From positions 2,110 through 66,109 of the forward strand of contig CAZPWS010000013.1 of assembly GCA_964590225.1 (NCBI GenBank): a DNA stretch of 64,000 nucleotides. The letters run 5' to 3'. The stretch is from an uncultured Fibrobacterota bacterium. GTDB lineage: Bacteria > Fibrobacterota > OXYB2-FULL-49-7 > JAEUSG01. The notes under the pieces were generated by a model. It saw only the letters and a program-made list of their open reading frames with translations, made no database searches and was not told the origin of the DNA. Shown here in pieces: positions 9,115 to 53,736 of the stretch (positions are counted from its first letter, which is position 1; the number at the start of each line of letters is the position of its first letter). Both the position numbers and the translations under genes were made by a program.

Positions 9115-10002
9115 ATGGGAAAAAAGATCTGTATAACGGGCGTTTCCGGACTTCTTGGGCAAAACCTCGTAAAAGTATTTTCGCAGAACGGCTACTATAC
9201 AATTGGTATGGACTTGAATCATCCAGGCGAAGCCTGCGTTGGCCTAAGCGAGTTCCGTGAAATTGACATTACGAACAAGGAAGCGCTTGTTGAACTATTT
9301 GCTGGAACAATGCCCGATTTTGTAATAAATACTGCGGCAATCACTAATGTTGACTTGTGCGAAAAAGAACAGGGACTGGCAGAGAGGGTTAACTTCAGAG
9401 CCGTTGAGCTCCTTGCTTCAGTTGTTCCCCGTTGTTGTAAGATTATTCAGCTCTCAACAGACTATGTGTTTGATGGAAAGAACGGACCATATGGCGATAA
9501 CGACAAAGAGAATCCTATAAGCTGGTACGGTAAAACTAAGAGAATGGCTGAAGTTGCGCTATTGACGGCAAATAAAAATCACCTTGTGGTCAGGACAATG
9601 GTACTTGTTGGTAAGGCAAAAGGGTTGAAGCCCGATTTTATCCATTTTGTTTGCGAATCCCTTTCAGCCGGAAAACGAATACGGGTAGTGACTGATCAGG
9701 TTGGTAATATTACACTTGCTTCCAATCTTGCGCAAAACATAAAAGTTGCGATTGAAGAAGGTTGTTCAGGTGTTATTTCGCTCGCAGGGGGGGAGCGTAT
9801 TAGCCGTTTTGACTTTGCGCAACGGCTCGCGGCAAGATACGGACTTGATAACTGCTTGATTGATCCCATCACGACCGCCGAACTAAAGCAACCCGCAATG
9901 CGTCCCCTTTCCTCAGGCTTTACGCACGAAAAAGCAATGAACATTAAGGGCATAAAACTTCTTTCTATTGAAGAGATGCTGGAGAAATACGACAATGAAT
10001 GA
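9115..10002 (+). CDS. RmlD-like NAD(P)-dependent sugar reductase (dTDP-4-dehydrorhamnose reductase family)
   Basis: GVSGLLG Rossmann motif, STDYVFDG and YGKTK (YxxxK) motifs. No rmlA, rmlB or rmlC in the window. Confidence 0.7.
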   Translation: MGKKICITGVSGLLGQNLVKVFSQNGYYTIGMDLNHPGEACVGLSEFREIDITNKEALVELFAGTMPDFVINTAAITNVDLCEKEQGLAERVNFRAVELLASVVPRCCKIIQLSTDYVFDGKNGPYGDNDKENPISWYGKTKRMAEVALLTANKNHLVVRTMVLVGKAKGLKPDFIHFVCESLSAGKRIRVVTDQVGNITLASNLAQNIKVAIEEGCSGVISLAGGERISRFDFAQRLAARYGLDNCLIDPITTAELKQPAMRPLSSGFTHEKAMNIKGIKLLSIEEMLEKYDNE

Positions 10003-24978: not shown

Positions 24979-25305
24979 TTATCTGACCAATTTTGCTCTT
25001 ACCGGAACGCCTTTACTATACGAATCAACAATAGCAGCCATCGCGTTTCTTTTACTATTGTCCATGTCTTCGTAATGAAATCCAGCATGCCACTCACCCT
25101 TCGAAACAGGCTTTACATACACAACCGATGATTTTATCTGAAGCTGATTACGACTGTTTTCGATTACAAGAAGGACATCTCTCCCCTGAGCAACACCTGT
25201 AGTATCCTTTAATAAGAGAGCGATTCCTGTTTCACTGATATCAATGGGCGCATTGTCGTCCAGAGTTAAATGCTGAATTCTATCAGCTTTTCGAATTTCT
25301 GCCAT
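24979..25305 (-). CDS. stand-alone PilZ-like domain protein
   Basis: 108 aa. RKADR (RxxxR) then DISETG (DxSxxG) 12 residues later, with a C-terminal HAGFHYEDM beta-barrel-like pattern. The spacing is shorter than canonical. Confidence 0.45.
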   Translation of the reverse strand: MAEIRKADRIQHLTLDDNAPIDISETGIALLLKDTTGVAQGRDVLLVIENSRNQLQIKSSVVYVKPVSKGEWHAGFHYEDMDNSKRNAMAAIVDSYSKGVPVRAKLVR

Positions 25306-43471: not shown

Positions 43472-43496
43472 TAAACCCCCCTTTCAAAATTAAAAA

Positions 43497-43518
43497 AGCG
43501 CACAATCCCGTGTGCGCT
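43497..43518 (-). terminator. intrinsic-terminator-like hairpin about 25 nt upstream of the DUF164 start codon (leader attenuator or end of a small RNA)
   Basis: AGCGCACA-CGGGAT-TGTGCGCT (8-bp stem) followed on the minus strand by TTTTTTAATTTT. It lies in a divergent intergenic region, so it terminates no annotated upstream CDS. Confidence 0.5.
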
Positions 43519-43673
43519 TTTAGTGTGGTTATTACAGATTATCTGCTTTGTATGATTATTCGCTTGTTTCATTTTTTATTTAATGAGCAAATATAATTAA
43601 TAGAATGTGCGCGTTACAAAAAAACATAATTGCATTTGTAAAACGGTTTAAATAATATTAATTGCAATAAGTT

Positions 43674-44168
43674 ATGAAAAAGACGCTTACTGTGAAAGAA
43701 GTTGCTGATTTGTGCGCAGTCACCCCCTCCACTGTTCAATACTGGGAACGAAAGGGGGCAATAAAGTCATTTAAGACTTTCGGTGGGCATAGAAGGTTTG
43801 AAGCTGACGCGGTTGAACAGTTCCTCGCTGAAAGAGGCAGGGGTTCTGCATCAATAACAGTGGCTACCGAAAAAAGAGCGGAACCCCGTTTTGCCGTAAG
43901 TTTCCCAGTACTAATTTTTGTTGAAGGGCTAACCGCGTGTACAGCCAGCGGAAATCTATCCAACCTGTCAAATAGTGGTTGTTGTATTGAATTTGCATCA
44001 AGTTGCTGCAACAATTTGACCTCTATTGAAGAAAAGCTTTTTAATAACGAGGTAAAAATTGAACGGGGCGAAGGGTGTCAAACCATCAATTCCCCCATGG
44101 CGGGACAAATCCGAAATATACGGTTGTTAGACCAGAAAACCATCCGAGTTGGTGTTTCGCTAAACTAA
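43674..44168 (+). CDS. DNA-binding (excisionase/MerR-type HTH) protein fused to a PilZ domain
   Basis: LTVKEVADLCAVTPSTVQYWERKGAI HTH. The PilZ motifs are RAEPR (RxxxR) and NLSNSG (D/NxSxxG) about 24 residues apart, with a C-terminal IRVGVSL strand. Confidence 0.7.
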   Translation: MKKTLTVKEVADLCAVTPSTVQYWERKGAIKSFKTFGGHRRFEADAVEQFLAERGRGSASITVATEKRAEPRFAVSFPVLIFVEGLTACTASGNLSNLSNSGCCIEFASSCCNNLTSIEEKLFNNEVKIERGEGCQTINSPMAGQIRNIRLLDQKTIRVGVSLN

Positions 44169-44236
44169 ATCGGCCAAAGGCCGAAACTAAGACTATGTGA
44201 TGGTAATCACGGACACGGCTCGCTAAATTAAATACC

Positions 44237-44265
44237 TTTACCATGCCCCCTTTTTCATGTATAAT
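44237..44265 (+). promoter_or_regulatory. sigma70-like promoter candidate for the giant adhesin gene
   Basis: TTTACC, 17 nt, TATAAT (preceded by TG), about 45 nt upstream of the ATG at 44308. The promoter consensus of this lineage is unknown. Confidence 0.3.
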
Positions 44266-44307
44266 ATCTGTATAGTGGGTGGTTTGCCTTTGTGATGGAG
44301 AAATAAA

Positions 44308-47300
44308 ATGAATAAAAGTACTCTATTTGCACTAATCGTGGCTTTAATTGCGGCGAATTCCTTCTCATATTCTGATGGTCACTTAAGAATTGCGGATATC
44401 TCCTATTACAACAATGTAGAATATTCGCTTACTAACGATTCTATCTTCGTTGAGGTAACGGATCCAGACTTGGACACAAGCGCCTCTGTTCGGGAAACCC
44501 TTTTTGTTCACATTTCAAGCTCAGTTGAACCAGCGGGCGACTCAATAAAACTGATCGAAACATGGAGTGGGAATGGGTGGGTTTTAAGAGGAGCAATCTA
44601 TGTCGATAGTTCGGCTACTCCAGTTTCCGGCGATAGAAAAATACAGGCAGTTGTGGGAGATATGATAACAGTAAGGTATCACGAATCAGCTAATCTTTAC
44701 GGAGAACCGGTTGTACACCAAAAGAAGCTCTTTGTTGCTAAAACAATTAAAAGTGGTGGCAGTGCCGGAAATGAAACATGGCCATTAAGCGGAAGCCCCT
44801 ATTTTGTTAGTGAAAATTTTACAGTTAACTCCAGTGATACCGTCACAATTGCGGCTGGTTCAATACTTGTGTTTCCTGTTAACAGGGATCCATGGTCTGA
44901 GGGTGTTAAACTAACCGTTTATGGACATTTAGTCGCAAACGGAACACTAACCGATTCAATTTATTTTGAATCGCTTGGCGATACTCCAACCAGAAGAGAT
45001 TGGCGAGGGATAGAAGTATATAATGGCTCAATAAATTTACGGTATTGCGTTTTACGCAACTCCACCTATGGAGTAAATTGGTATTATAGTTCCAACTTCG
45101 TTTTCAAGTCCAGCAGAGTAAGCCACTCTTCATTTGTCCGCCACGAAAATGCGCTGCGACACGAGGCATACAATTCACCATACAAATCACTTATCATCGA
45201 CAGCAATTACATTGAATTGTTTGCTTTGCAGGATTCATCTTCAGTAACAGGTATATACAGCACTCAGGGTACCACATATTCTGACACTTTTAAAATTTTT
45301 GACAACAAAATAAAGATCAATCAGGAGACATCTTCCGCTACCTTCTTTTATGGTATGCAATTGACTGGTAGAGATTCTTCCGCTACTGACTACAGCCGTG
45401 CTGTTATTGAGAGGAATTTGATATGGTCGGATAGTGGATATCCTGATCGGCAGGCGAATGGTATCTACCTGTCGTACTTCAAGGCAACAGATATAAAGAG
45501 TAACAGAATCAGCGGTTTTTCAAAAGGTGTTTATTTCGGGTGTCATAACTTCGGTACCATTTTTGAGGACAATATTTTAACACGAAACCATATTGATGCA
45601 TACATCGACTGTGAACCCGGAATTGCTCTTAGAAACAATGCCTTTGCCAGTAACAGTGCAGGAGGATATGGGGTTTACAATTCGCATTACAGTGATGTTG
45701 ACGCAAGGAATGTTTATTGGGGTGAAACGGCGCGGGCGCAAATGAATAGCGGAAGCAACCCAAAAAACATTACAAGAATTTATGACAAATTTGATTATTC
45801 CGGAGTTGGACAAGTTCTTTATTCCGGTTGGTTGAGCGATACAAATGGTACACCAACACCTTCTGGAATTGATGGAGAAATTAAAATACTCGATATGTCC
45901 TATATGACACGCGGCTACTGTCTGGTTGGACAAAGTATTCGGGTGCGAATAATCGATTCAGATCTGAATCTTGACCCGGGAGTTATGGAGACTATTAAAA
46001 TTAGTTTCTCAACAGGAGTCGAGACTACCGACACTCTTTTTCTGCAGGAAACATCGATAAATTCTGACACTTTTGAGGTTGTTGCTCTTGTTGAAAACAA
46101 TCCGACTCCATCCCTTAAAGATGGGAAAATTCAGGTTTTATATGGTCAGATGATTGAGTTTACATACAGAGATGCGCTAACTGGCTATGGATCAGCAGTT
46201 GACAAGAAAATTGTTATAACTGTTCCCAAAACAGTTGTATCGTCCGTATCGGGCAATACAATATGGAATTCAACTAATAGCCCTTACTGGCTTGATGGAA
46301 GTATTACTGTGTGGGCAGGAGACACACTCGAAATTCAGCAGGGAACAAGAGTGTGGATGAAAGCCAATAAGAGCCAGGAATATGAGCAGTATGGTGACAC
46401 CATAAATGTGTTTGGTCACCTTAAAGTTATTGGCGCCTCTGGTGACTCTGTACATATTGGTCCTGTAAGTACAGCTCCTGCTATTCGTGAATGGTTTGGA
46501 ATCCGTGCGTACGGAACAGGTTCAGTTTCTTTAAAGTATGCCAAATTGACCAATGCCTATCGTGGTGTTGAACTCTGGTACGAATATAGCGGTTCTGTCT
46601 GTTTTAATCGAATATCACATTCATTGATATCCTCGGCAAAAACAGCCGTTTATGGATACAATTCAGAATCGCAAGGCATAACAATAATTATTGACAGTAG
46701 CAAGTTTGTGTCTGCTCCTGCCGATACGGTCTCGGATTACTTAGTCAATATGGCATGGTACGGCTATAACAATTCGGGGGATAGTTTGCTGATTTCAGAC
46801 AACGAGTTTAGCATACATAGCAGTCCATCATACACATCAAACAACAAGGCGGTTTATCTTTATGGCAGAAGGGCTTTGCCTGGTTTTAAAAAGGGGTATT
46901 TTCAGCGGAACATAATAAAATCTGATTCTTTGCCAGGGATAGGTCATGAAAGTTCGCATTTAGGTATTGAACTAAGCGACATGCATAGCCTCATGGTGCA
47001 AAATAACCGCTTCAGCAGATTTATTACTGCTATGCGTATTACCGGAGATTCAGGCAGTATTTATAGCGGAAATATTTTTAACGAAAATCAACATCACATC
47101 TACATTGGCTGGGGAGAGAAAGCAGGTCGCTTTCAGGGAAATGCCTTCTCTCACCCATTGTCTGGCGGCTATGCCTTTTACAACAACTCGAGTCCATTTG
47201 TAGATGCTCGTAATAACTATTGGGGTGGTCCTGCAACATCGGAGATGAATAGTGGTGGCAATCCAAAAAATATCTCTGTAATACACGATATGTTTGACGA

Positions 47301-50300
47301 AGCTTCGAGAGGACAGGTGCAGTATGCAGGTTGGTTGAGCGATACAAACGGTACTCCTTCTGCTACCGGTACCGCTGGTATGCTTAAGCTTGCGATTAGC
47401 GATACCGTTTCAAGGGATTGGTATCTGCCTGGCGACACGATGATTATACTGCTTACGGATCCCGATCTTAACACAAATGGAAGCGTTACCGAAACGGTTA
47501 AGATTTCAATATCAAGCAATCAGGAAGCATCAGACACAATCACTCTTACTGAACATGGAACCGACTCTTCACTTTTCACGGCAACGGTGGTAATCGACGA
47601 AAGCGGAACGCCAGTTTATGGCGATGGAAAATTACAGGCTCTGCCTGGAAGTGACATAGTTGTCCGCTATCAGGATATGCAAAATAATTTCGGTCAGCCG
47701 CAACTTGTTATGAGAAAAGCTTTACTTGCAAAGACATATCTTCCTTCAGGTCCATTATCTTACGGAACAGTTCTCGATCATACGCAAAGCCCATACATTA
47801 TGGGTGGCAGTATAAGCGTCATGGTTGGGGATACACTGAAAATCAATCAGGGCACACGGATAATTACAAGAAAGCGGGAAAAGATCAATCCGTGGGATAG
47901 CGACAATGGAGACACTATCTCTGTTTACGGCCATTTGCAGGTAGATGGCGTGGCAGGGGATAGCGTTTATTTCGATACACAAAGAGAGGAAAAATATCCT
48001 GGCAGCTGGTATGGAATCCGTGTTGAGAACGGAGGCACATTCAATATTCGCCATGCTTCATTCTGGAATACTGAGTGCGCACTTGATATTTATACATCAA
48101 ACTATGATACGAACTATGTCAACTTCAGATTGACTAATTCAAAAGTTAATAACGCAAAACGGGCCATGATATTTAACTCAAGCACTTCTGAAAAAATGAC
48201 CCTTAGGGTAAATAACAACAGTTTCGATATTGTCCTGCCTGATACATTTGCAACAGATGCTTTTTATTTTCATTACAACTGGTCAAATGGTGACAGTCTT
48301 ATTTTTTCCGATAACCGGATAAATTTGCACAACAGACGATATAGCCGAAATGGTGCTGCCATTAGAATACAAAACAGAAACAGTGGACCGGAATGCATCC
48401 AAGCATTAATCATTAGAAATATTATTTCTGCCGATACCGCTACAGTATTCAGTAACGATTTTAGTGGCATATACATTGCACAGGCGAGAATGATCAAGGT
48501 TGATACGAATGAGATTTACAGGTTTAGCAGAGGCATATATATATCGGACGACTCAGGGATTGTTATACAGGCAAATAAGTTTGAAGGAAATAACACTCAC
48601 ATTGAAAGAAATTATACATACAACCAATCAAATTCTTACGCAAATAATAATGATTTCGGCCCATTTATGGCTGGTGGTTATGCAATTAGAATGGCCGCAG
48701 AATCAAATGGCTTTGATTTCGATGCAAGGTATAATTACTGGGGACCTTCCATTACCGCCGAGATGAATGGAGGAGGTAATCCGAAAAATATTTCAGGAAT
48801 ACTTGATTTCTACGATAATTCAACTTACGGTAAAGTCACATACTCAGGCTGGCGTTCTACGCCTGCGCTAAATGTGCCGCCAGTATTTACATCGGCTCCA
48901 TCGCTCGCTATTCTGCAGGGCAGGGTTTGGACATACGAAATGACCGCAACCGATGCTAATGGGGATGCTATTGTATTTGAGTTGACAAGCGTACCTGCTG
49001 ATATCGAGCAGACAGGCAATACTTTGAGCTTTAGACCAATGGTTGCCGGTAATTATGAGTTTGTGTTGAGCGCTGTGGCAGGAGGCCAGACAACTCAGCA
49101 AATATTTACGCTTGTTGTAAACGCTGATACTGACCGTCCTTCAAATCCATTAACACTCACTGCCAACGCTGTTTCTGACTCAGCGATAGCACTTTCTTGG
49201 AACCATGATGCTCTTATAGGCACTGATATTGATTCTATTGGAATATGGGCAACTTCGTCAACTTATCCTGATAGTGCTCCCTATGAAGGCGGGGTATTAT
49301 ACAGCCATAGATTCAGTAAAAGTGAATCAAACGCTATGGTTTCATATCTCTGGCCAAAACTTGGACTCTATTTCTCCCTTTTTGTGATGGATAGTGCCGG
49401 GAACTGGAGTGTTGCACCTTCTCAGACTTATGCTCAAACACTTGATTTGCAGCCACCTGAACCTGTTGTTGGTTTTTGGATTGAACACCTTAGTGCTGAT
49501 AGTGTCAGGCTTCATTGGTCGTCTTCAGTTTCGACCGATGTTGATTCACTGGCGATTTGCGTAAGAACAGACTCCATTTATCCAGTTAACCAGTTTGATG
49601 GAGCTATAGGTGCGGTTCCTGGAACAATAACTTCCTTTAGATGGAGTGGTTTGCCGGAAAATACAACTGCCCGTTTTTCGATTTACGCAAGGGACACTTC
49701 CGGCAACTGGAGCACTGCCGCTACCTATGAAGTTTATATGCCAAGAGTCACAAAGCCTGTGAACAATCTTGTGCTAAGTGCCACTCCTATCAGAAAGAAT
49801 CTGGTGAGACTAAAGTGGAATCCTGCCCTTATTGCCGGAGATGGAGTTATGCATGTTGAGGTAATGTGGGGAATGGCAAAACCTAAGGTGTGGCGCGATA
49901 CTTCGATTGCGTTGCAGTATATGATAATGCCTTCTCTGCTTGATTCAGTCACGGATATTGGCATTGAGGAAAATGAGGATTACTGGTTTGCTCTCTTTGT
50001 AGTGGATTCGTTTGGTCTTGGAAGCGATACAACAACAGCCGCAATGAAAAAAGTGAATAGTAATGATTTTATTCCTCCGGCTAACCCGCTGGTATTGTCC
50101 GCAGAGGTGCTTTCCGAACATTCTGCAAGATTGTCCTGGGATCTTTCAGCATTGAACGGAACGCCTATCTCACAAATCAGTTTGTATTACGGTCATTCCA
50201 AAATGACTCATAGAGAAGATACAAATGGTGTTCACATTATGACCTATTTTGCTCCTTTTGATTCAGAGTACACAGCTGCTTTCCTTGAAGGCAAAAAAGA

Positions 50301-53300
50301 TTACTGGTTTACGCTATTTGTACGAGATTCTTTTACAAATTCCAGCGATACGGCTACTTTGGCAATGAAGAAAATAACCACTCCTGATCAGACATCACCG
50401 AACTCAATAGCAGCTCTTCATGTTGATTATGTTGGACTTGGAACTCTGGCTTTCAGCTGGAATCCATCAAATTCTCCGGATGCAGAACAAGTAGTAGTTC
50501 GTTATCGTACCGATGGTTTTTATCCTGATTCAATATCTGATGGATTGTTACTAAAGAACTATTCACCTCTTGATACTGCTGATACGCTTAGTGTTTTTAC
50601 GGAAGGCGTTGACTACCAATTTACCTTCTTTGTTATAGACTCATCCGGAAATGTAAGTCCGCCAATGCCGTGGAATCAGGCACAAATACAAGTAAAAACT
50701 CCGGCGCAAAATGTGAACAATGTTCTCGTATCTGCCATCGACACTTCAACCATAGGTGTCAGGCTTGATTATGCTGGAGCTTTTGCTGATTCTTTCCTTG
50801 TAAGGGTTGATACGGCACGGCATTTAAGCAGTGCTACTAATCTTTCAGCGGCAATTACCTACGCTTACATGAATTATTTCAATCCAAACGATACACTTAA
50901 AATTTTCTCAGGACTAAAAAGTGGTTCGCTCTACTATGTTACTGTATCTGCGTTTAATCAGGGATTTATATCAGACACGATAAATGATTTTAAAGGCGCA
51001 ACTGTGTTAACGCCATCCGTTGGCCCGGCTGCTCCGATATTTGTTACAAGTTTTACCGATACGCTGCAAACACTTGTTGACTCTCTCTTTTTTCTCAACT
51101 TAATTGCTGTTGATGCCAATAATGATGCGCTTGGTTTTTATTTCCTACAGACTCCTCCTTCTGGCATGACTCTTAATCCAACCACCGGAGCCTTATCGTG
51201 GACACCAACCATAGCAGATACAAACATATATACAGTATCTATTTATGTCAGTGATGGCAGCTTGCGGGATACTCTCTCCTTCGTTCTCAAGGCGTTAAAT
51301 ATTAACCAACCACCCGTCTTTATTACCACTGCTGGTGAAATGCCTCAGTGGATACCAGAGAAAGTTTTGTGGACAAAACAGATTAGAGTTTATGATCCCG
51401 ATTCCGCAAGAGGCGACAAGGCACGCTTATTTCTCGATATCGCTCCCACTGGAATGGTTATCGATTCAACTACCAATGTTCTTAGCTGGACACCATCTGC
51501 TTCCCAGATTTCTGCGCTGCCAAATTACGAGGTATATATAAGAGCAGTTGACAATAAAGGTCTTACGGCTGTTCTTAATTTTTCAATCGGGGTTCAGAAT
51601 GTTAACGACAAACCTGTTCTTAACACATATTCCTCAAAGGATACAGCTTATCAGGACATATTGTTCAGGAAAATATATGCCGCAGTTGATCCTGATATGA
51701 ACGAAGTGCTTGTTTACAGATTGGTCAGCGGACCTACTGGCATGACAATAGACTCTACAAATGGAAGGATAAGCTTTACTCCTGTTGAAGGGCAATTTGG
51801 AAATACTACTTTTAGTATCTCAGTTACCGATGCGGGAGGACTATTTGATACTCTTTCTGTTACGCTTACAATGATTAACAGGAACGATCCTCCAGTAATA
51901 TCAACTACTCTCAATACTGAAACAATACAGGAAAAGGCAGCCAAGACATGGACATTGGCAGCAACGGACCCTGATGTTAGTGATATTTTGCGATGGAAAA
52001 AATTGGTTGGACCAACTACTCTTACCGTAGATTCCCTTAATGGCTCTGTTTTATGGGTGCCACAAAACAATGATGTCGGCACACACACAATCACCATAGC
52101 GGTATATGACAAAGAGGGGCTTTCTGATACGCTCACCTTCTTAGTAGTAGTAGAGAACACCAACGATATTCCTACTATCACGATTACAGAAGGACCATTG
52201 GTAAATTTTGGAGCTGTAAAAATCAAATTTAGCGCAAACGATGTTGATCGCAGAAACGGAATAGACTCAACGCTAACCATATCTGCTGTTATAACTGTTT
52301 CAGATTCCTCGGTTCCTCTTTTAAGTAAAACCATATCCCTAAGGAAAAACGACTCTCTCTTCGAGTTTTACCCTGTGAATGATGGGGTATATGATATTAA
52401 GTTAACAGTAAAAGACCAAGCGGCAGACAGCAGCACTGCAATCAAGAAATTCTCCATTGGTGGTGCCGGACAATCTGTTACTTCAAATTTGTTTGTCGGT
52501 GGTAACTGGATAATGGCATCTGTACCTACAGATTCATCAGCCATGCCATCTACTCTTACCGATACAAACCGAAGTGTTGCCGTCTGGTCACCTTCTAAAA
52601 AGCAATATGTTTATGCCAATAGTGGCTTTTCGGCTCTAAAGAGAGGAAGTGGCTTCTGGATTTACTCTATGGACTCTGTAAGAATCAACACACCCAAGAG
52701 CCTTGTTAATCCCTCTTTATCTGGTAGCTGTACTTTAAGAGTTGACACAGGGTGGAACATGATATCAAGTCCTTATGCCTATCCGGTAAAGCTCCCCCTT
52801 TCCGACCCACTTCGCCACTGGTCTTTAACAACAGAAAACTACGATACAACATCCATAATGGAGCCGTGGAAGGGATATTTTGTGTATTCACTCAATGCGC
52901 AGCCAATAGTTCTCACTGGCAACCCATTCAACCCAGATAGTACTGAAAAAAGGTCGCTTGGTAAAACACGACAACTCAATAAAGACGCTGGGGAGTGGCT
53001 TGTTAACATTATAGTAGTTTCCGGCGGTAAACACGACTTAATGAACTCCTTTGGCTCAATGATTGGAGCAAGCGACTTCCACGATACGCTCGACATGACA
53101 AAACCTCCCCCTGCTCCTAATGGCGGTCCAATAATAGCGTTTGTTCAAAAGGGTAGCTCCCAAATGCTTGACCGAAGCGTAACAGCACCATTTAGCGGAA
53201 CAAAAGAGTGGCTCCTTTATGCAGAACCAGCGGCTGGCGAAAATCAATTGGAACTGACTTTTACCGCTACCGATCTTCCAGAAAAATTCCGCATGTATAT

Positions 53301-53736
53301 AGATAACAGTGGTGATTGTTTTGATATTACAGAGAATAATAAAGTAGCGTTAAAAACTATAGATGGAAGATATGTTTCCGTTTTTGTATCTGACGATCCA
53401 AACTTCCTGTCGAAGAGGGTAAATATATTTGAGCTTGCCCAAAACACCCCAAACCCGTTCAACCCCGCTACTTCAATCAACTTTTCACTGCCAAGAACAT
53501 ACAGCCCAAATGGAAAACCTGTTGATGGCTCTGTTCTTTTATCCTTAAAGATTTACAATACGCATGGCAAACTTGTAAGAATCCTTGCAATAGGAAAGTA
53601 CGATCAAGGTAGAAGGTATAGCACAATGTGGGATGGAAAGAGCGACAACGGCAAGCCACTCTCATCCGGATTATATTTCTACAAGCTCGAAGCAGGCACT
53701 TGGAAGGCTACAAGAAAAATGGTTATGGTGAAATAG
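44308..53736 (+). CDS. 3142-aa secreted adhesin-like protein: three tandem modules (beta-sandwich plus parallel beta-helix), cadherin-like/He_PIG domains, six Fn3-like domains, and a FlgD-Ig/T9SS-type C-terminal sorting domain
   Basis: Signal peptide MNKSTLFALIVALIAANSFS. The YWG..(x)..MNSGGNPKNI...GW motif occurs at aa 470, 971 and 1477. PPVF..TA.D.. cadherin-like units. The C-terminus is NTPNPFNPATSINFSLP...WDGKSDNGKPLSSGLYFYKLE. Confidence 0.9.
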   Translation: MNKSTLFALIVALIAANSFSYSDGHLRIADISYYNNVEYSLTNDSIFVEVTDPDLDTSASVRETLFVHISSSVEPAGDSIKLIETWSGNGWVLRGAIYVDSSATPVSGDRKIQAVVGDMITVRYHESANLYGEPVVHQKKLFVAKTIKSGGSAGNETWPLSGSPYFVSENFTVNSSDTVTIAAGSILVFPVNRDPWSEGVKLTVYGHLVANGTLTDSIYFESLGDTPTRRDWRGIEVYNGSINLRYCVLRNSTYGVNWYYSSNFVFKSSRVSHSSFVRHENALRHEAYNSPYKSLIIDSNYIELFALQDSSSVTGIYSTQGTTYSDTFKIFDNKIKINQETSSATFFYGMQLTGRDSSATDYSRAVIERNLIWSDSGYPDRQANGIYLSYFKATDIKSNRISGFSKGVYFGCHNFGTIFEDNILTRNHIDAYIDCEPGIALRNNAFASNSAGGYGVYNSHYSDVDARNVYWGETARAQMNSGSNPKNITRIYDKFDYSGVGQVLYSGWLSDTNGTPTPSGIDGEIKILDMSYMTRGYCLVGQSIRVRIIDSDLNLDPGVMETIKISFSTGVETTDTLFLQETSINSDTFEVVALVENNPTPSLKDGKIQVLYGQMIEFTYRDALTGYGSAVDKKIVITVPKTVVSSVSGNTIWNSTNSPYWLDGSITVWAGDTLEIQQGTRVWMKANKSQEYEQYGDTINVFGHLKVIGASGDSVHIGPVSTAPAIREWFGIRAYGTGSVSLKYAKLTNAYRGVELWYEYSGSVCFNRISHSLISSAKTAVYGYNSESQGITIIIDSSKFVSAPADTVSDYLVNMAWYGYNNSGDSLLISDNEFSIHSSPSYTSNNKAVYLYGRRALPGFKKGYFQRNIIKSDSLPGIGHESSHLGIELSDMHSLMVQNNRFSRFITAMRITGDSGSIYSGNIFNENQHHIYIGWGEKAGRFQGNAFSHPLSGGYAFYNNSSPFVDARNNYWGGPATSEMNSGGNPKNISVIHDMFDEASRGQVQYAGWLSDTNGTPSATGTAGMLKLAISDTVSRDWYLPGDTMIILLTDPDLNTNGSVTETVKISISSNQEASDTITLTEHGTDSSLFTATVVIDESGTPVYGDGKLQALPGSDIVVRYQDMQNNFGQPQLVMRKALLAKTYLPSGPLSYGTVLDHTQSPYIMGGSISVMVGDTLKINQGTRIITRKREKINPWDSDNGDTISVYGHLQVDGVAGDSVYFDTQREEKYPGSWYGIRVENGGTFNIRHASFWNTECALDIYTSNYDTNYVNFRLTNSKVNNAKRAMIFNSSTSEKMTLRVNNNSFDIVLPDTFATDAFYFHYNWSNGDSLIFSDNRINLHNRRYSRNGAAIRIQNRNSGPECIQALIIRNIISADTATVFSNDFSGIYIAQARMIKVDTNEIYRFSRGIYISDDSGIVIQANKFEGNNTHIERNYTYNQSNSYANNNDFGPFMAGGYAIRMAAESNGFDFDARYNYWGPSITAEMNGGGNPKNISGILDFYDNSTYGKVTYSGWRSTPALNVPPVFTSAPSLAILQGRVWTYEMTATDANGDAIVFELTSVPADIEQTGNTLSFRPMVAGNYEFVLSAVAGGQTTQQIFTLVVNADTDRPSNPLTLTANAVSDSAIALSWNHDALIGTDIDSIGIWATSSTYPDSAPYEGGVLYSHRFSKSESNAMVSYLWPKLGLYFSLFVMDSAGNWSVAPSQTYAQTLDLQPPEPVVGFWIEHLSADSVRLHWSSSVSTDVDSLAICVRTDSIYPVNQFDGAIGAVPGTITSFRWSGLPENTTARFSIYARDTSGNWSTAATYEVYMPRVTKPVNNLVLSATPIRKNLVRLKWNPALIAGDGVMHVEVMWGMAKPKVWRDTSIALQYMIMPSLLDSVTDIGIEENEDYWFALFVVDSFGLGSDTTTAAMKKVNSNDFIPPANPLVLSAEVLSEHSARLSWDLSALNGTPISQISLYYGHSKMTHREDTNGVHIMTYFAPFDSEYTAAFLEGKKDYWFTLFVRDSFTNSSDTATLAMKKITTPDQTSPNSIAALHVDYVGLGTLAFSWNPSNSPDAEQVVVRYRTDGFYPDSISDGLLLKNYSPLDTADTLSVFTEGVDYQFTFFVIDSSGNVSPPMPWNQAQIQVKTPAQNVNNVLVSAIDTSTIGVRLDYAGAFADSFLVRVDTARHLSSATNLSAAITYAYMNYFNPNDTLKIFSGLKSGSLYYVTVSAFNQGFISDTINDFKGATVLTPSVGPAAPIFVTSFTDTLQTLVDSLFFLNLIAVDANNDALGFYFLQTPPSGMTLNPTTGALSWTPTIADTNIYTVSIYVSDGSLRDTLSFVLKALNINQPPVFITTAGEMPQWIPEKVLWTKQIRVYDPDSARGDKARLFLDIAPTGMVIDSTTNVLSWTPSASQISALPNYEVYIRAVDNKGLTAVLNFSIGVQNVNDKPVLNTYSSKDTAYQDILFRKIYAAVDPDMNEVLVYRLVSGPTGMTIDSTNGRISFTPVEGQFGNTTFSISVTDAGGLFDTLSVTLTMINRNDPPVISTTLNTETIQEKAAKTWTLAATDPDVSDILRWKKLVGPTTLTVDSLNGSVLWVPQNNDVGTHTITIAVYDKEGLSDTLTFLVVVENTNDIPTITITEGPLVNFGAVKIKFSANDVDRRNGIDSTLTISAVITVSDSSVPLLSKTISLRKNDSLFEFYPVNDGVYDIKLTVKDQAADSSTAIKKFSIGGAGQSVTSNLFVGGNWIMASVPTDSSAMPSTLTDTNRSVAVWSPSKKQYVYANSGFSALKRGSGFWIYSMDSVRINTPKSLVNPSLSGSCTLRVDTGWNMISSPYAYPVKLPLSDPLRHWSLTTENYDTTSIMEPWKGYFVYSLNAQPIVLTGNPFNPDSTEKRSLGKTRQLNKDAGEWLVNIIVVSGGKHDLMNSFGSMIGASDFHDTLDMTKPPPAPNGGPIIAFVQKGSSQMLDRSVTAPFSGTKEWLLYAEPAAGENQLELTFTATDLPEKFRMYIDNSGDCFDITENNKVALKTIDGRYVSVFVSDDPNFLSKRVNIFELAQNTPNPFNPATSINFSLPRTYSPNGKPVDGSVLLSLKIYNTHGKLVRILAIGKYDQGRRYSTMWDGKSDNGKPLSSGLYFYKLEAGTWKATRKMVMVK
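44371..48882 (+). repeat. three tandem, diverged, in-frame coding repeats of about 1.5 kb within the giant gene
   Basis: The period is 501 and 506 codons between the YWG motifs. A 29-nt segment at 45826-45854 recurs at 47328-47356 with 2 mismatches (encoding GWLSDTNGTP). Confidence 0.8.

What the first reader, a model, noticed from the sequence alone, without database searches (positions are those of the whole stretch)
43674..44168. HTH-PilZ fusion (candidate c-di-GMP-responsive transcription factor) directly upstream of the 3142-aa adhesin gene
Seen: the N-terminal excisionase/MerR-type HTH (LTVKEVADLCAVTPSTVQYWERKGAI) is fused to a PilZ domain with intact RAEPR and NLSNSG motifs at canonical spacing. 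The gene ends 139 nt before the giant adhesin gene, with a promoter-like TTTACC-17-TATAAT in between. Established: PilZ-containing transcription factors are known (for example MrkH activating type 3 fimbriae), and c-di-GMP commonly switches on large adhesins. Inference: a dedicated c-di-GMP switch controls the giant surface protein. Together with the PilZ-like protein at 24979-25305, this suggests that c-di-GMP coordinates the motor block and its putative cargo.
Basis: partly seen in the sequence, partly recalled or inferred. Interest (0 to 1): 0.65.

Follow-up and report, generated by a model that had tools for sequence, protein, structure and literature searches.

The report
c-di-GMP sensor-regulator beside giant gene
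A small gene in an uncultured sludge bacterium (Fibrobacterota lineage) fuses a BldC-type DNA-binding domain to a c-di-GMP-sensing PilZ domain. Genes of this rare, unstudied family sit directly in front of giant surface-protein genes far more often than chance, so it is probably a second-messenger switch for those proteins.

Summary
ORF 43674-44168 encodes a 164-aa protein. Its N-terminal winged HTH is the BldC/excisionase type and scores above Pfam cut-offs. The C-terminal domain scores just below the Pfam PilZ cut-off, but it folds as a PilZ barrel. Across the family, its invariant residues include the four motif positions RxxxR and SxxG.

The family is tiny: about 18 clusters among 5.8 billion proteins, all named hypothetical or excisionase-family. 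Every member with a taxon label is from Fibrobacterota or Raymondbacteria.

The proposed link to giant genes is supported at family level. Of about 19 loci, at least 5 have a gene of 1,530 to 7,270 aa directly downstream on the same strand (P about 3e-7). These giants belong to at least four unrelated kinds, and most gaps are 47 nt or less.

In this window the link is looser. The gap is 139 nt. The giant has its own promoter, preceded by a CRP-consensus palindrome (44196-44211). In the congeneric genome the two genes are not adjacent.

That palindrome marks a genome-wide regulon: 11 sites, all intergenic, four of them in front of giants. A CRP homologue with an RETVSR recognition helix is encoded elsewhere. 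The giant therefore probably has two inputs. The proposed coordination with the motor-block PilZ is unsupported.

Verdict: a new variant of a known kind.

The parts
43674..44168 (+). HTH-PilZ gene, 164 aa
   Evidence: ORF. The N-terminus aligns with homologues.
43683..43835 (+). BldC/excisionase-type winged HTH, aa 4-54. The wing is GGHRRF (aa 37-42) and the helix carries W24.
   Evidence: HTH_17 43.1 bits. BldC 6ama: E 2.6e-6 by sequence and rmsd 1.4 A by fold. The BldC contact residues Thr27, Trp31, His46, Arg47 and Arg48 (PMC5859096) correspond to T20, W24, H39, R40 and R41. The base-reading Arg30 is Tyr23 here.
43869..44165 (+). PilZ beta-barrel, aa 66-164: six strands and no C-terminal helix
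   Evidence: Pfam PilZ 19.9 bits, below the cut-off. AF2 secondary structure. Foldseek hits to PilZ domains.
43875..43889 (+). RxxxR motif (R68-A-E-P-R72)
   Evidence: R68 and R72 are invariant in 14 family members.
43962..43979 (+). [D/N]xSxxG motif (N97-L-S-N-S-G102)
   Evidence: S99 and G102 are invariant. Position 97 is D in all other members and N here.
43627..43666 (+). Two direct repeats TAATTGCA (43627-43634 and 43659-43666), 32 bp apart, just 5' of the HTH-PilZ start. This is a candidate BldC-style operator and is inferred only.
   Evidence: the repeat finder family D1. Similar AATT-core direct repeats lie 5' of homologues in G048 and G001. The BldC wing reads AATT-type minor grooves. 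No statistical test was run.
44170..44184 (.). 6-bp GC hairpin TCGGCC-AAA-GGCCGA, starting one base after the stop codon. It has no T-tail on the + strand.
   Evidence: It is terminator-like only on the minus strand, so read-through from the HTH-PilZ gene into the giant gene is not excluded.
44196..44211 (.). CRP-consensus palindrome TGTGATGGTAATCACG (TGTGA-N6-TCACg)
   Evidence: Conserved 5' of the giant's orthologue in G001. It is one of 11 such sites in the genome, all intergenic, and 4 of them lie 5' of giants.
44237..44265 (+). Promoter-like TTTACC-17-TATAAT of the giant gene
   Evidence: The -35 (CTTTAC) and the -10 region are conserved in G001.
44308..53736 (+). 3142-aa secreted giant protein with a T9SS type A sorting domain
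   Evidence: Pfam He_PIG, Big_9, fn3, Cadherin_5, NosD and FlgD_ig. TIGR04183 25.4 bits against a cut-off of 23. A signal peptide is visible.
24979..25305 (-). Stand-alone PilZ protein in the motor block. It is real, but no link to this locus was shown.
   Evidence: Pfam PilZ 34.9 bits. Motifs RKADR and DISETG.

Best explanation
The gene encodes a one-component, c-di-GMP-responsive DNA-binding regulator.

Domains. A BldC-type winged HTH is joined by a flexible linker of about 12 residues to a canonical-motif PilZ barrel. The HTH has no coiled-coil dimerisation helix.

Proposed mechanism. c-di-GMP binds at R68, R72, N97, S99 and G102. Binding changes how the protein associates with itself or how it presents its HTH. 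This alters occupancy of AT-rich (AATT-core) operator repeats at its own promoter and at the promoter of the giant surface-protein gene that follows it. Synthesis of the 3142-aa T9SS-sorted protein is thereby coupled to the sessile, high-c-di-GMP state.

In most relatives the regulator and a giant gene form one operon. Here the giant has its own promoter, which also carries a CRP-type site. The giant would therefore integrate a cyclic-mononucleotide (CRP) input and a c-di-GMP (HTH-PilZ) input.

Shown: the domain folds, motif conservation, presence of c-di-GMP enzymes, and the statistical association with giant genes. Inferred: ligand binding, DNA targets, and the sign of regulation.
For: - Domain identity.
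- The C-terminal-domain positions that stay invariant across about 25-40% identical homologues include the four motif positions R68, R72, S99 and G102.
- The genome has 6 GGDEF genes.
- Six family members found in whole genomes have a large same-strand gene directly downstream: window 3142 aa (gap 139 nt); G002 >=2416 aa (33 nt); G004:C44 >=3312 aa (4-nt overlap); G004:C49 7270 aa (31 nt); G048 >=1530 aa (23 nt); G046 >=851 aa, open-ended (15 nt).
- Metagenome loci add L112 (>=1138 aa, open-ended) and L090 and L087, whose open-ended downstream ORFs start like secreted proteins.
- Background rate: 0.78% of ORFs in this genome are >=1400 aa. P(>=5 of 19) = 3e-7. Counting one inherited cassette once gives P = 1e-5.
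- The giants are of at least four unrelated kinds, so the pairing arose or was kept repeatedly.
- The BldC wing residues that read AT-rich minor grooves are conserved, and AATT-core direct repeats lie at the gene's own 5' end.
Against: - There is no experiment and no transcript data. Only DNA runs from sludge hold the sequence.
- The Pfam PilZ score is below the cut-off, and the model lacks the C-terminal helix of canonical PilZ.
- In the closest genome (G001) the positional orthologue is not next to the giant, whose orthologue keeps its own promoter.
- Orthologues of this particular giant in G004 and G046 have no HTH-PilZ neighbour.
- About 10 of 19 family loci have ordinary neighbours.
- A CRP-type site gives the giant an alternative regulator.
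- The candidate operator repeats were not tested against chance.
Confidence: 0.55

Rival explanations
1. The giant gene is controlled essentially by a CRP-type, cyclic-nucleotide-dependent factor acting at the TGTGA-N6-TCACA site. HTH-PilZ is a co-expressed member of that regulon whose own targets lie elsewhere, for example as a pleiotropic BldC-like regulator. On this reading, adjacency reflects co-regulation and not control of the giant.
For: - The palindrome at 44196-44211 is conserved 5' of the G001 orthologue, where no HTH-PilZ gene is seen in the 175 nt available upstream.
- The genome has 11 such sites, all intergenic (P = 5e-13). Four lie 5' of genes of 2771-3386 aa (P = 2.5e-8).
- The same site lies 5' of HTH-PilZ genes in G004:C44, G004:C49, L090 and G001:C252.
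- A 231-aa CRP homologue has a cNMP-binding motif and an RETVSR recognition helix.
- The palindrome is enriched in genomes without HTH-PilZ.
- BldC itself is pleiotropic (PMC5859096).
Against: - This does not explain why the regulator is repeatedly fused into one operon with unrelated giants at gaps of 47 nt or less.
- Operon partners of regulators are usually their targets.
- Several HTH-PilZ-giant operons (G048, G046, L112) show no palindrome in the upstream sequence inspected.
- The two models are not mutually exclusive.
Confidence: 0.22
2. HTH-PilZ itself is the protein that binds the TGTGAT-N4-ATCACA palindrome. It would then be the master regulator of the whole giant and surface-protein regulon.
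For: - The palindrome is strongly enriched at HTH-PilZ loci: 5 of about 19 within 300 bp.
- It also lies in front of four giants in this genome.
Against: - The site is the exact CRP consensus, and a CRP homologue with the matching RE..R helix exists.
- BldC-type HTHs lack a dimerisation helix and bind direct repeats, not palindromes.
- The palindrome is enriched in Fibrobacterota genomes that lack the family (G026, G030, G044, G060). In G030 it precedes ordinary genes.
Confidence: 0.1
3. The PilZ-like domain no longer binds c-di-GMP. It would serve only as a protein-interaction or oligomerisation module on a BldC-like DNA-binding protein.
For: - Pfam scores are sub-threshold in all members tested, 16.7-22.2 bits.
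- The C-terminal helix is missing.
- Non-binding PilZ domains are known (Galperin and Chou preprint 10.1101/814665).
Against: - Both binding motifs are intact, and they are the most conserved C-terminal-domain positions in the family.
- The same preprint states that PilZ domains in fusion proteins retain binding.
Confidence: 0.08
4. The excisionase-type HTH acts as a recombination directionality or architectural factor in phase variation of giant genes.
For: - The HTH matches HTH_17 and TIGR01764 (excisionase).
- One homologue (G114) has a serine recombinase two genes downstream.
Against: - No inverted repeats flank the giant's promoter.
- No recombinase lies next to this gene or next to the other giant-linked loci.
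- The closest structural match is the transcription factor BldC.
Confidence: 0.03

Closest known systems
MrkH of Klebsiella pneumoniae (PilZ-based c-di-GMP-dependent activator of type 3 fimbriae; PMC3161979; PDB 5kec, 5kgo)
   Same: - The c-di-GMP sensor is a canonical-motif PilZ domain in a small DNA-binding regulator.
- It is encoded beside the surface-adhesion genes it controls.
- The PilZ domains superpose (Foldseek E 5e-3).
   Different: MrkH has an N-terminal PilZ-like barrel and no HTH, and it contacts DNA largely through the PilZ C-terminal helix. The protein here has a canonical winged HTH and lacks that helix. It is an analogue, not a homologue, outside the PilZ domain.
BldC of Streptomyces (68-aa MerR-like wHTH; PMC5859096; PDB 6ama, 6amk)
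   Same: - The N-terminal domain is 41% identical, with rmsd 1.4 A.
- The wing GGHRR and Trp are conserved.
- There is no coiled-coil dimerisation helix.
   Different: - BldC has no sensor domain.
- The base-reading Arg30 is Tyr here.
- The NCBIfam BldC cut-off is not reached (52.7 bits against 77).
- BldC is a pleiotropic developmental repressor in Actinomycetota.
BrlR of Pseudomonas aeruginosa (MerR-family c-di-GMP-responsive regulator)
   Same: It is a MerR-type HTH regulator whose activity responds to c-di-GMP (review PMC12564702).
   Different: BrlR senses c-di-GMP through its GyrI-like domain and HTH region and is a classical coiled-coil dimer. It has no PilZ domain. Foldseek similarity is limited to the HTH.
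Uncharacterised two-domain PilZ proteins with DNA-binding domains (Chi et al. preprint 10.1101/2020.02.11.943704, cluster 15)
   Same: PilZ plus HTH in a protein of about 140-280 aa, predicted to regulate genes.
   Different: Cluster 15 has the HTH at the C-terminus and no member has been characterised. Here the HTH is N-terminal and of the BldC/excisionase type. No paper in the held library uses the terms HTH-PilZ, PilZ-HTH or MerR-PilZ.
MerR-type HTH fused to a cobalamin-binding sensor domain (CarH 5c8d; 'putative cobalamin binding protein' 8jbs)
   Same: The same kind of short MerR/BldC-like HTH is placed N-terminal to a small-molecule sensor domain.
   Different: The sensor is a B12-binding domain, not PilZ, and the signal is light or cobalamin.

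Membership tests
PilZ domain (PF07238) | RxxxR motif in the N-terminal loop | tested here: met
   R68-AEP-R72. Both arginines are invariant in 14 homologues.
PilZ domain (PF07238) | [D/N]xSxxG motif about 20-30 residues downstream | tested here: met
   N97-L-S99-N-S-G102, 24 residues after R72. S and G are invariant.
PilZ domain (PF07238) | Six-stranded beta-barrel fold | tested here: met
   The AF2 model has six strands at aa 78-163, pLDDT 83.5. The best Foldseek hits for this part are PilZ domains of BcsA, VCA0042, PA4608, MrkH, PlzA, Alg44 and YcgR.
PilZ domain (PF07238) | Score above Pfam's gathering threshold | tested here: not met
   19.9 bits against 22.5. Relatives score 16.7-22.2. The profile match covers positions 1-83 of 102.
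PilZ domain (PF07238) | C-terminal alpha-helix of canonical PilZ (Galperin and Chou) | tested here: not met
   The model ends with strand 156-163, and the protein ends at residue 164.
PilZ domain (PF07238) | Binds c-di-GMP | not testable with these tools
   Requires a binding assay.
BldC family (NF033787) / MerR-like wHTH | HTH_17 or MerR-type winged HTH above threshold | tested here: met
   HTH_17 43.1 bits (cut-off 27), MerR 39.0 (28.2), TIGR01764 39.1 (28.8).
BldC family (NF033787) / MerR-like wHTH | NCBIfam BldC subfamily cut-off | tested here: not met
   52.7 bits against 77.
BldC family (NF033787) / MerR-like wHTH | Wing His-Arg-Arg and helix Trp that contact DNA; base-reading Arg30 | tested here: inconclusive
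   H39, R40, R41 and W24 are conserved, but Arg30 is replaced by Tyr23 (alignment; contact residues from PMC5859096).
BldC family (NF033787) / MerR-like wHTH | Head-to-tail multimers on direct repeats | not testable with these tools
   Only candidate AATT-core direct repeats were seen.
Classical MerR regulators | C-terminal coiled-coil dimerisation helix plus effector pocket | tested here: not met
   After the HTH come a disordered linker and a beta-barrel.
MrkH family | N-terminal PilZ-like (PilZN2) barrel plus C-terminal PilZ with a DNA-binding helix | tested here: not met
   The N-terminal domain is a wHTH and there is no C-terminal helix (description of MrkH).
T9SS type A cargo (the neighbouring giant) | C-terminal sorting domain TIGR04183 | tested here: met
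   25.4 bits against a cut-off of 23. FlgD_ig 30.3 bits against 27.

The most novel reading that the evidence does not exclude
BldC-type HTH-PilZ proteins are a lineage-specific class of 'giant-gene switches'. In this reading they form a portable two-gene cassette (regulator plus any giant secreted protein) in which c-di-GMP bridges PilZ domains. That bridging drives BldC-style head-to-tail assembly on AATT direct repeats. The cassette is wired into a CRP-type cyclic-nucleotide regulon that has recruited most of the largest surface proteins of these bacteria. Two second messengers would then jointly decide when the cell pays for a 3,000-7,000-residue protein.
Probability: 0.3. Interest if true: 0.7.

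Novelty: new variant of a known kind. Interest (0 to 1): 0.55.

Why it matters
According to a 2025 review (PMC12564702), MrkH is the only characterised transcription factor that senses c-di-GMP through a PilZ domain, and it lacks a classical HTH. A PilZ domain fused to a canonical winged HTH would be the simplest possible c-di-GMP one-component regulator. It would also show how a BldC-type domain, which has no dimerisation helix, can be put under ligand control.

The repeated pairing with unrelated giant genes gives a concrete, testable rule for how uncultured Fibrobacterota and Raymondbacteria regulate their most expensive surface proteins. The CRP-type palindrome in front of the same genes points to combined cNMP and c-di-GMP control.

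The protein is small and soluble-looking, so binding and footprinting tests need only synthetic DNA.

Tried and rejected
- Close-homologue search: only one truncated relative was found. An exhaustive search was needed.
- The search for related loci with the 14-member alignment failed because no stretch was conserved enough. It was repeated with the close clade.
- Loci from other genomes are not visible to Python, so contexts were read with the ORF listing.
- Homology between the window's giant and the giants beside the G002 and G004:C44 homologues: none by BLASTP. Only the G002 and G004:C44 giants are related to each other. G004:C49 and G048 are unrelated over their first 500 aa.
- Orthologues of the window's giant (G001, G004:C28, G046:C239) were checked for an HTH-PilZ neighbour: none. 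The 170-aa ORF upstream in G004:C28 is a secreted CTD protein, not a regulator.
- Transcript evidence: only DNA runs from sludge and wastewater hold the locus.
- Intrinsic terminator between the two genes: the hairpin at 44170-44184 has no T-tail on the + strand.
- HTH-PilZ as the binder of the palindrome: considered and rated low, because the site equals the CRP consensus, a CRP homologue is present, and the site is enriched in genomes lacking the family.
- Phase-variation reading: no inverted repeats flank the promoter.
- Literature: no paper in the held library uses the terms HTH-PilZ, PilZ-HTH or MerR-PilZ, and the single paper holding both 'PilZ' and 'excisionase' is on an unrelated topic.
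Full report
**1. The observation**

The + strand ORF 43674-44168 encodes 164 aa. It ends 139 nt before the ATG (44308) of a 3142-aa ORF.

The N-terminal 54 residues are a winged HTH that scores clearly above curated cut-offs:
- HTH_17: 43.1 bits against 27
- MerR: 39.0 against 28.2
- MerR_1: 32.9 against 21.6
- excisionase domain TIGR01764: 39.1 against 28.8

The best NCBIfam model is the BldC family, at 52.7 bits, below its cut-off of 77. The best solved structure is Streptomyces BldC (6ama, E 2.6e-6).

The PilZ call cannot rest on the HMM. Pfam gives 19.9 bits against a cut-off of 22.5, and relatives give 16.7-22.2. Three other lines settle it.
- In a 14-sequence alignment of full-length relatives (21-42% identical), the only invariant residues in the C-terminal domain are R68, R72, S99, G102 and G160. 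Position 97 is D everywhere except here, where it is N. Apart from G160, these are the RxxxR and [D/N]xSxxG contact positions.
- An AlphaFold2 model built on that alignment (mean pLDDT 83.5) has two well-folded domains joined by a low-confidence linker at aa 59-66.
- Foldseek against the PDB returns PilZ domains for the C-terminal part: BcsA 4hg6 (E 3e-4), VCA0042 2rde (rmsd 3.5 A over 100 columns), PA4608, MrkH, PlzA, PA0012, Alg44 and YcgR. It returns BldC for the N-terminal part (rmsd 1.4 A, 41% identity).

The family profile's only non-HTH PDB matches are also PilZ domains, although they are weak. The barrel has six strands. It lacks the C-terminal helix of canonical PilZ, which explains why only profile positions 1-83 of 102 match.

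The TTTACC-17-TATAAT element exists at 44237-44265 and matches 10 of 12 positions. Such matches are common in this AT-rich stretch.

**2. The organism and how rare the family is**

Close relatives come from MAGs labelled Fibrobacteres, Fibrobacterota and Candidatus Raymondbacteria. The locus is found in sludge metagenome DNA runs and in no RNA run. The genome has six GGDEF genes and five Pfam PilZ hits, so c-di-GMP signalling is present.

The family is very small.
- A word-indexed search found one truncated relative.
- An exhaustive scan of 1.84 billion representatives gave about eight full-length relatives among hundreds of HTH-only hits.
- A profile search of 5.8 billion proteins gave 18 clusters. 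All are named hypothetical, HTH-domain-containing or excisionase-family, and only about half carry a precomputed PilZ hit.

There are two clades. One carries the motif PSTVQYWE...GGHRRF and includes this protein. The other carries PSTVxLWVKKG...GGNFRF and includes a paralogue in this genome on contig C56.

**3. Is it linked to giant genes?**

I read the gene directly downstream of every full-length family member I could reach. That covered 14 members in 296 Fibrobacterota genomes, plus loci from metagenomes.

A very large ORF follows on the same strand at these loci:

| Locus | Downstream ORF | Gap |
|---|---|---|
| Window | 3142 aa | 139 nt |
| G002 | >=2416 aa | 33 nt |
| G004:C44 (also L092) | >=3312 aa | 4-nt overlap |
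| G004:C49 | 7270 aa on a longer JGI contig | 31 nt |
| G048 | >=1530 aa | 23 nt |
| G046 | >=851 aa, cut by the contig end | 15 nt |
| L112 | >=1138 aa, cut by the contig end | 47 nt |

L090 and L087 have open-ended downstream ORFs that start like secreted proteins.

Ordinary neighbours follow at about ten loci:
- G001:C478: a convergent CHASE2 cyclase
- G001:C252
- G003
- G000:C56: a PEGA protein plus an ECF sigma and FecR anti-sigma pair
- G114, G110 and G108
- L088: an oxidoreductase
- L110: a response regulator
- L111: an 805-aa protein

In this genome only 21 of about 2,700 ORFs reach 1,400 aa. The chance of 5 or more such neighbours in 19 loci is therefore 3e-7. It is 1e-5 if the homologous G002 and G004:C44 cassettes are counted once.

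The giants are not one family. The window's giant has no BLASTP similarity to those of G002 or G004:C44. G002 and G004:C44 are related to each other (29% identity, E 1e-27). G004:C49 and G048 are unrelated over their first 500 aa. Their domains (Ig-like, PKD, fn3, PA14, beta-helix) and signal peptides mark them as extracellular. Both clades of the regulator show the pairing.

The linkage is with giants as a class, not with one adhesin.

**4. What is special, and weaker, at this locus**

Here the two genes are not tightly coupled. The hairpin starting one base after the stop (44170-44184) has no T-tail on the + strand.

The congeneric genome G001 keeps the regulator in the same upstream synteny: it is divergent from the Zn-ribbon, IMPDH, RecN and CDP-alcohol transferase genes. 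However, a convergent CHASE2 adenylate/guanylate cyclase follows it there. G001's orthologue of the giant (46-53% identity) lies on three other contigs.

The 175 nt in front of the G001 orthologue align with the window only from 44194 onward. The shared elements are a palindrome, the -35 CTTTAC and the -10 region. The giant therefore carries its own promoter module. Orthologues of this giant in G004 and G046 also have no HTH-PilZ neighbour.

**5. A second regulator for the giant**

The conserved palindrome TGTGATGGTAATCACG (44196-44211) is the CRP consensus TGTGA-N6-TCACA.

The genome has 11 sites matching TGTGAT-N4-ATCACA at 11 or more of 12 positions. All 11 are intergenic, although about 92% of the genome lies in called ORFs (P about 5e-13). 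Four lie 33-135 nt upstream of genes of 2771-3386 aa, out of only eight genes of 2000 aa or more (P about 2.5e-8). Three of those giants share the same C-terminal sorting-domain sequence. Other sites precede secreted proteins and an 83-aa BldC-like HTH gene.

The same palindrome lies upstream of HTH-PilZ genes in G004:C44, G004:C49 (TGTGACATAGGTCACA), L090 and G001:C252.

I attribute the site to a CRP-type factor and not to HTH-PilZ, for four reasons.
- The genome encodes a 231-aa CRP homologue with a cNMP-binding motif and an RETVSR recognition helix like that of E. coli CRP. The residue-to-TGTGA assignment is from my own knowledge.
- BldC-type domains bind direct repeats, not palindromes (PMC5859096).
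- The palindrome is also enriched in Fibrobacterota genomes that lack the family.
- In one such genome, G030, the sites precede ordinary-size genes.

The giant, and in relatives the whole HTH-PilZ-giant operon, thus appears to belong to a cyclic-nucleotide regulon.

**6. How it most likely works**

Shown:
- a BldC-like wHTH with the wing residues that read AT-rich minor grooves (H39, R40, R41) and the kink-inducing Trp (W24)
- a PilZ barrel with intact, family-invariant ligand motifs
- a flexible linker
- enzymes for c-di-GMP synthesis in the genome
- non-random placement in front of giant secreted-protein genes

Inferred: c-di-GMP binding alters self-association or HTH presentation. That changes occupancy of AATT-core repeats at the gene's own promoter and at the giant's promoter, tying production of the giant to high c-di-GMP. 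Candidate repeats are TAATTGCA at 43627-43634 and 43659-43666. Similar repeats precede the G048 and G001 homologues.

The sign of regulation is unknown. In the operonic relatives the regulator would also autoregulate. I put this model at 0.55.

The main rival (0.22) is that CRP is the real controller and HTH-PilZ merely rides in the regulon. The two are compatible as a two-input promoter.

**7. Comparison with known systems**

MrkH is the closest functional analogue: a PilZ-sensing regulator beside adhesion genes. Its architecture differs, however, with a PilZ-like N-terminal domain, no HTH and DNA contacts through the PilZ C-terminal helix.

BldC is the closest relative of the DNA-binding half, but it has no sensor. 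BrlR is a MerR-type c-di-GMP-responsive regulator without PilZ.

A large-scale PilZ survey notes that two-domain PilZ proteins with DNA-binding domains exist, and describes an uncharacterised cluster with a C-terminal HTH. A 2025 review lists MrkH as the only PilZ-based transcription factor characterised. No paper in the held library uses the terms HTH-PilZ, PilZ-HTH or MerR-PilZ, and the one paper holding both 'PilZ' and 'excisionase' is on an unrelated topic.

**8.

The PilZ protein at 24979-25305 is genuine (34.9 bits, motifs RKADR and DISETG). It lies 18 kb away, on the other strand, in another transcription unit. It is one of at least six PilZ-type proteins in the genome. I found nothing that ties it to this locus.

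**9. Verdict**

Interest is moderate (0.55). A c-di-GMP specialist would expect such fusions. The recurrent operon with unrelated giant genes, the BldC-type DNA-binding half and the overlapping CRP-type regulon are new, specific and cheaply testable.

Noticed in passing
window 44196-44211; own genome C8:26793, C35:20132, C46:13189 and seven further sites: A CRP-consensus palindrome (TGTGAT-N4-ATCACA) defines a small regulon. It has 11 sites, all intergenic. Four lie directly 5' of genes of 2771-3386 aa. Others lie 5' of secreted or T9SS-sorted proteins. A CRP homologue with an RETVSR helix is at C4:79078-79773.
   Followed up: partly
L021 7126-9231 (G001:C478): In the congeneric genome the HTH-PilZ orthologue is followed, 8 nt after its stop, by a convergent CHASE2 adenylate/guanylate cyclase gene. 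A cyclic-nucleotide source therefore sits beside a c-di-GMP sensor.
   Followed up: no
own genome C8:42112-42363: An 83-aa stand-alone BldC/MerR-like HTH gene has a perfect TGTGATTAAAATCACA palindrome 124 nt upstream. A putative outer-membrane or secreted 359-aa protein follows it.
   Followed up: no
L113 10524 onward (Raymondbacteria, JGI contig Ga0208953_1000248): The gene behind the HTH-PilZ paralogue P0064 encodes a 7270-aa protein. It is preceded by an ECF sigma factor and a response regulator, and a perfect CRP-type site lies about 160 nt 5' of the regulator.
   Followed up: partly
L026 5829-9368 (own genome C56): The second HTH-PilZ paralogue of this genome heads a block of PEGA-domain protein, ECF sigma factor and FecR-type anti-sigma. 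It lies just downstream of a fused sugar-transferase/polysaccharide-synthesis gene. This is another cell-surface context.
   Followed up: no
window 43494-43521: An 11-bp perfect hairpin followed by T-rich sequence lies on the minus strand, in the leader of the divergent Zn-ribbon/IMPDH array. An equivalent hairpin is conserved in G001 (L021 about 9870-9900).
   Followed up: no
window 44193-44203 and 44288-44298: A direct repeat CT(A/T)TGTGATGG occurs 95 nt apart. The first copy overlaps the CRP-type site and the second abuts the giant's Shine-Dalgarno sequence. Its significance is unknown.
   Followed up: no
G001 contigs C56, C420, C803: The orthologue of the giant is split over three short contigs in the congeneric MAG. 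This is presumably assembly breakage at its internal 500-aa repeats, and such giants are systematically truncated in short-read MAGs.
   Followed up: no
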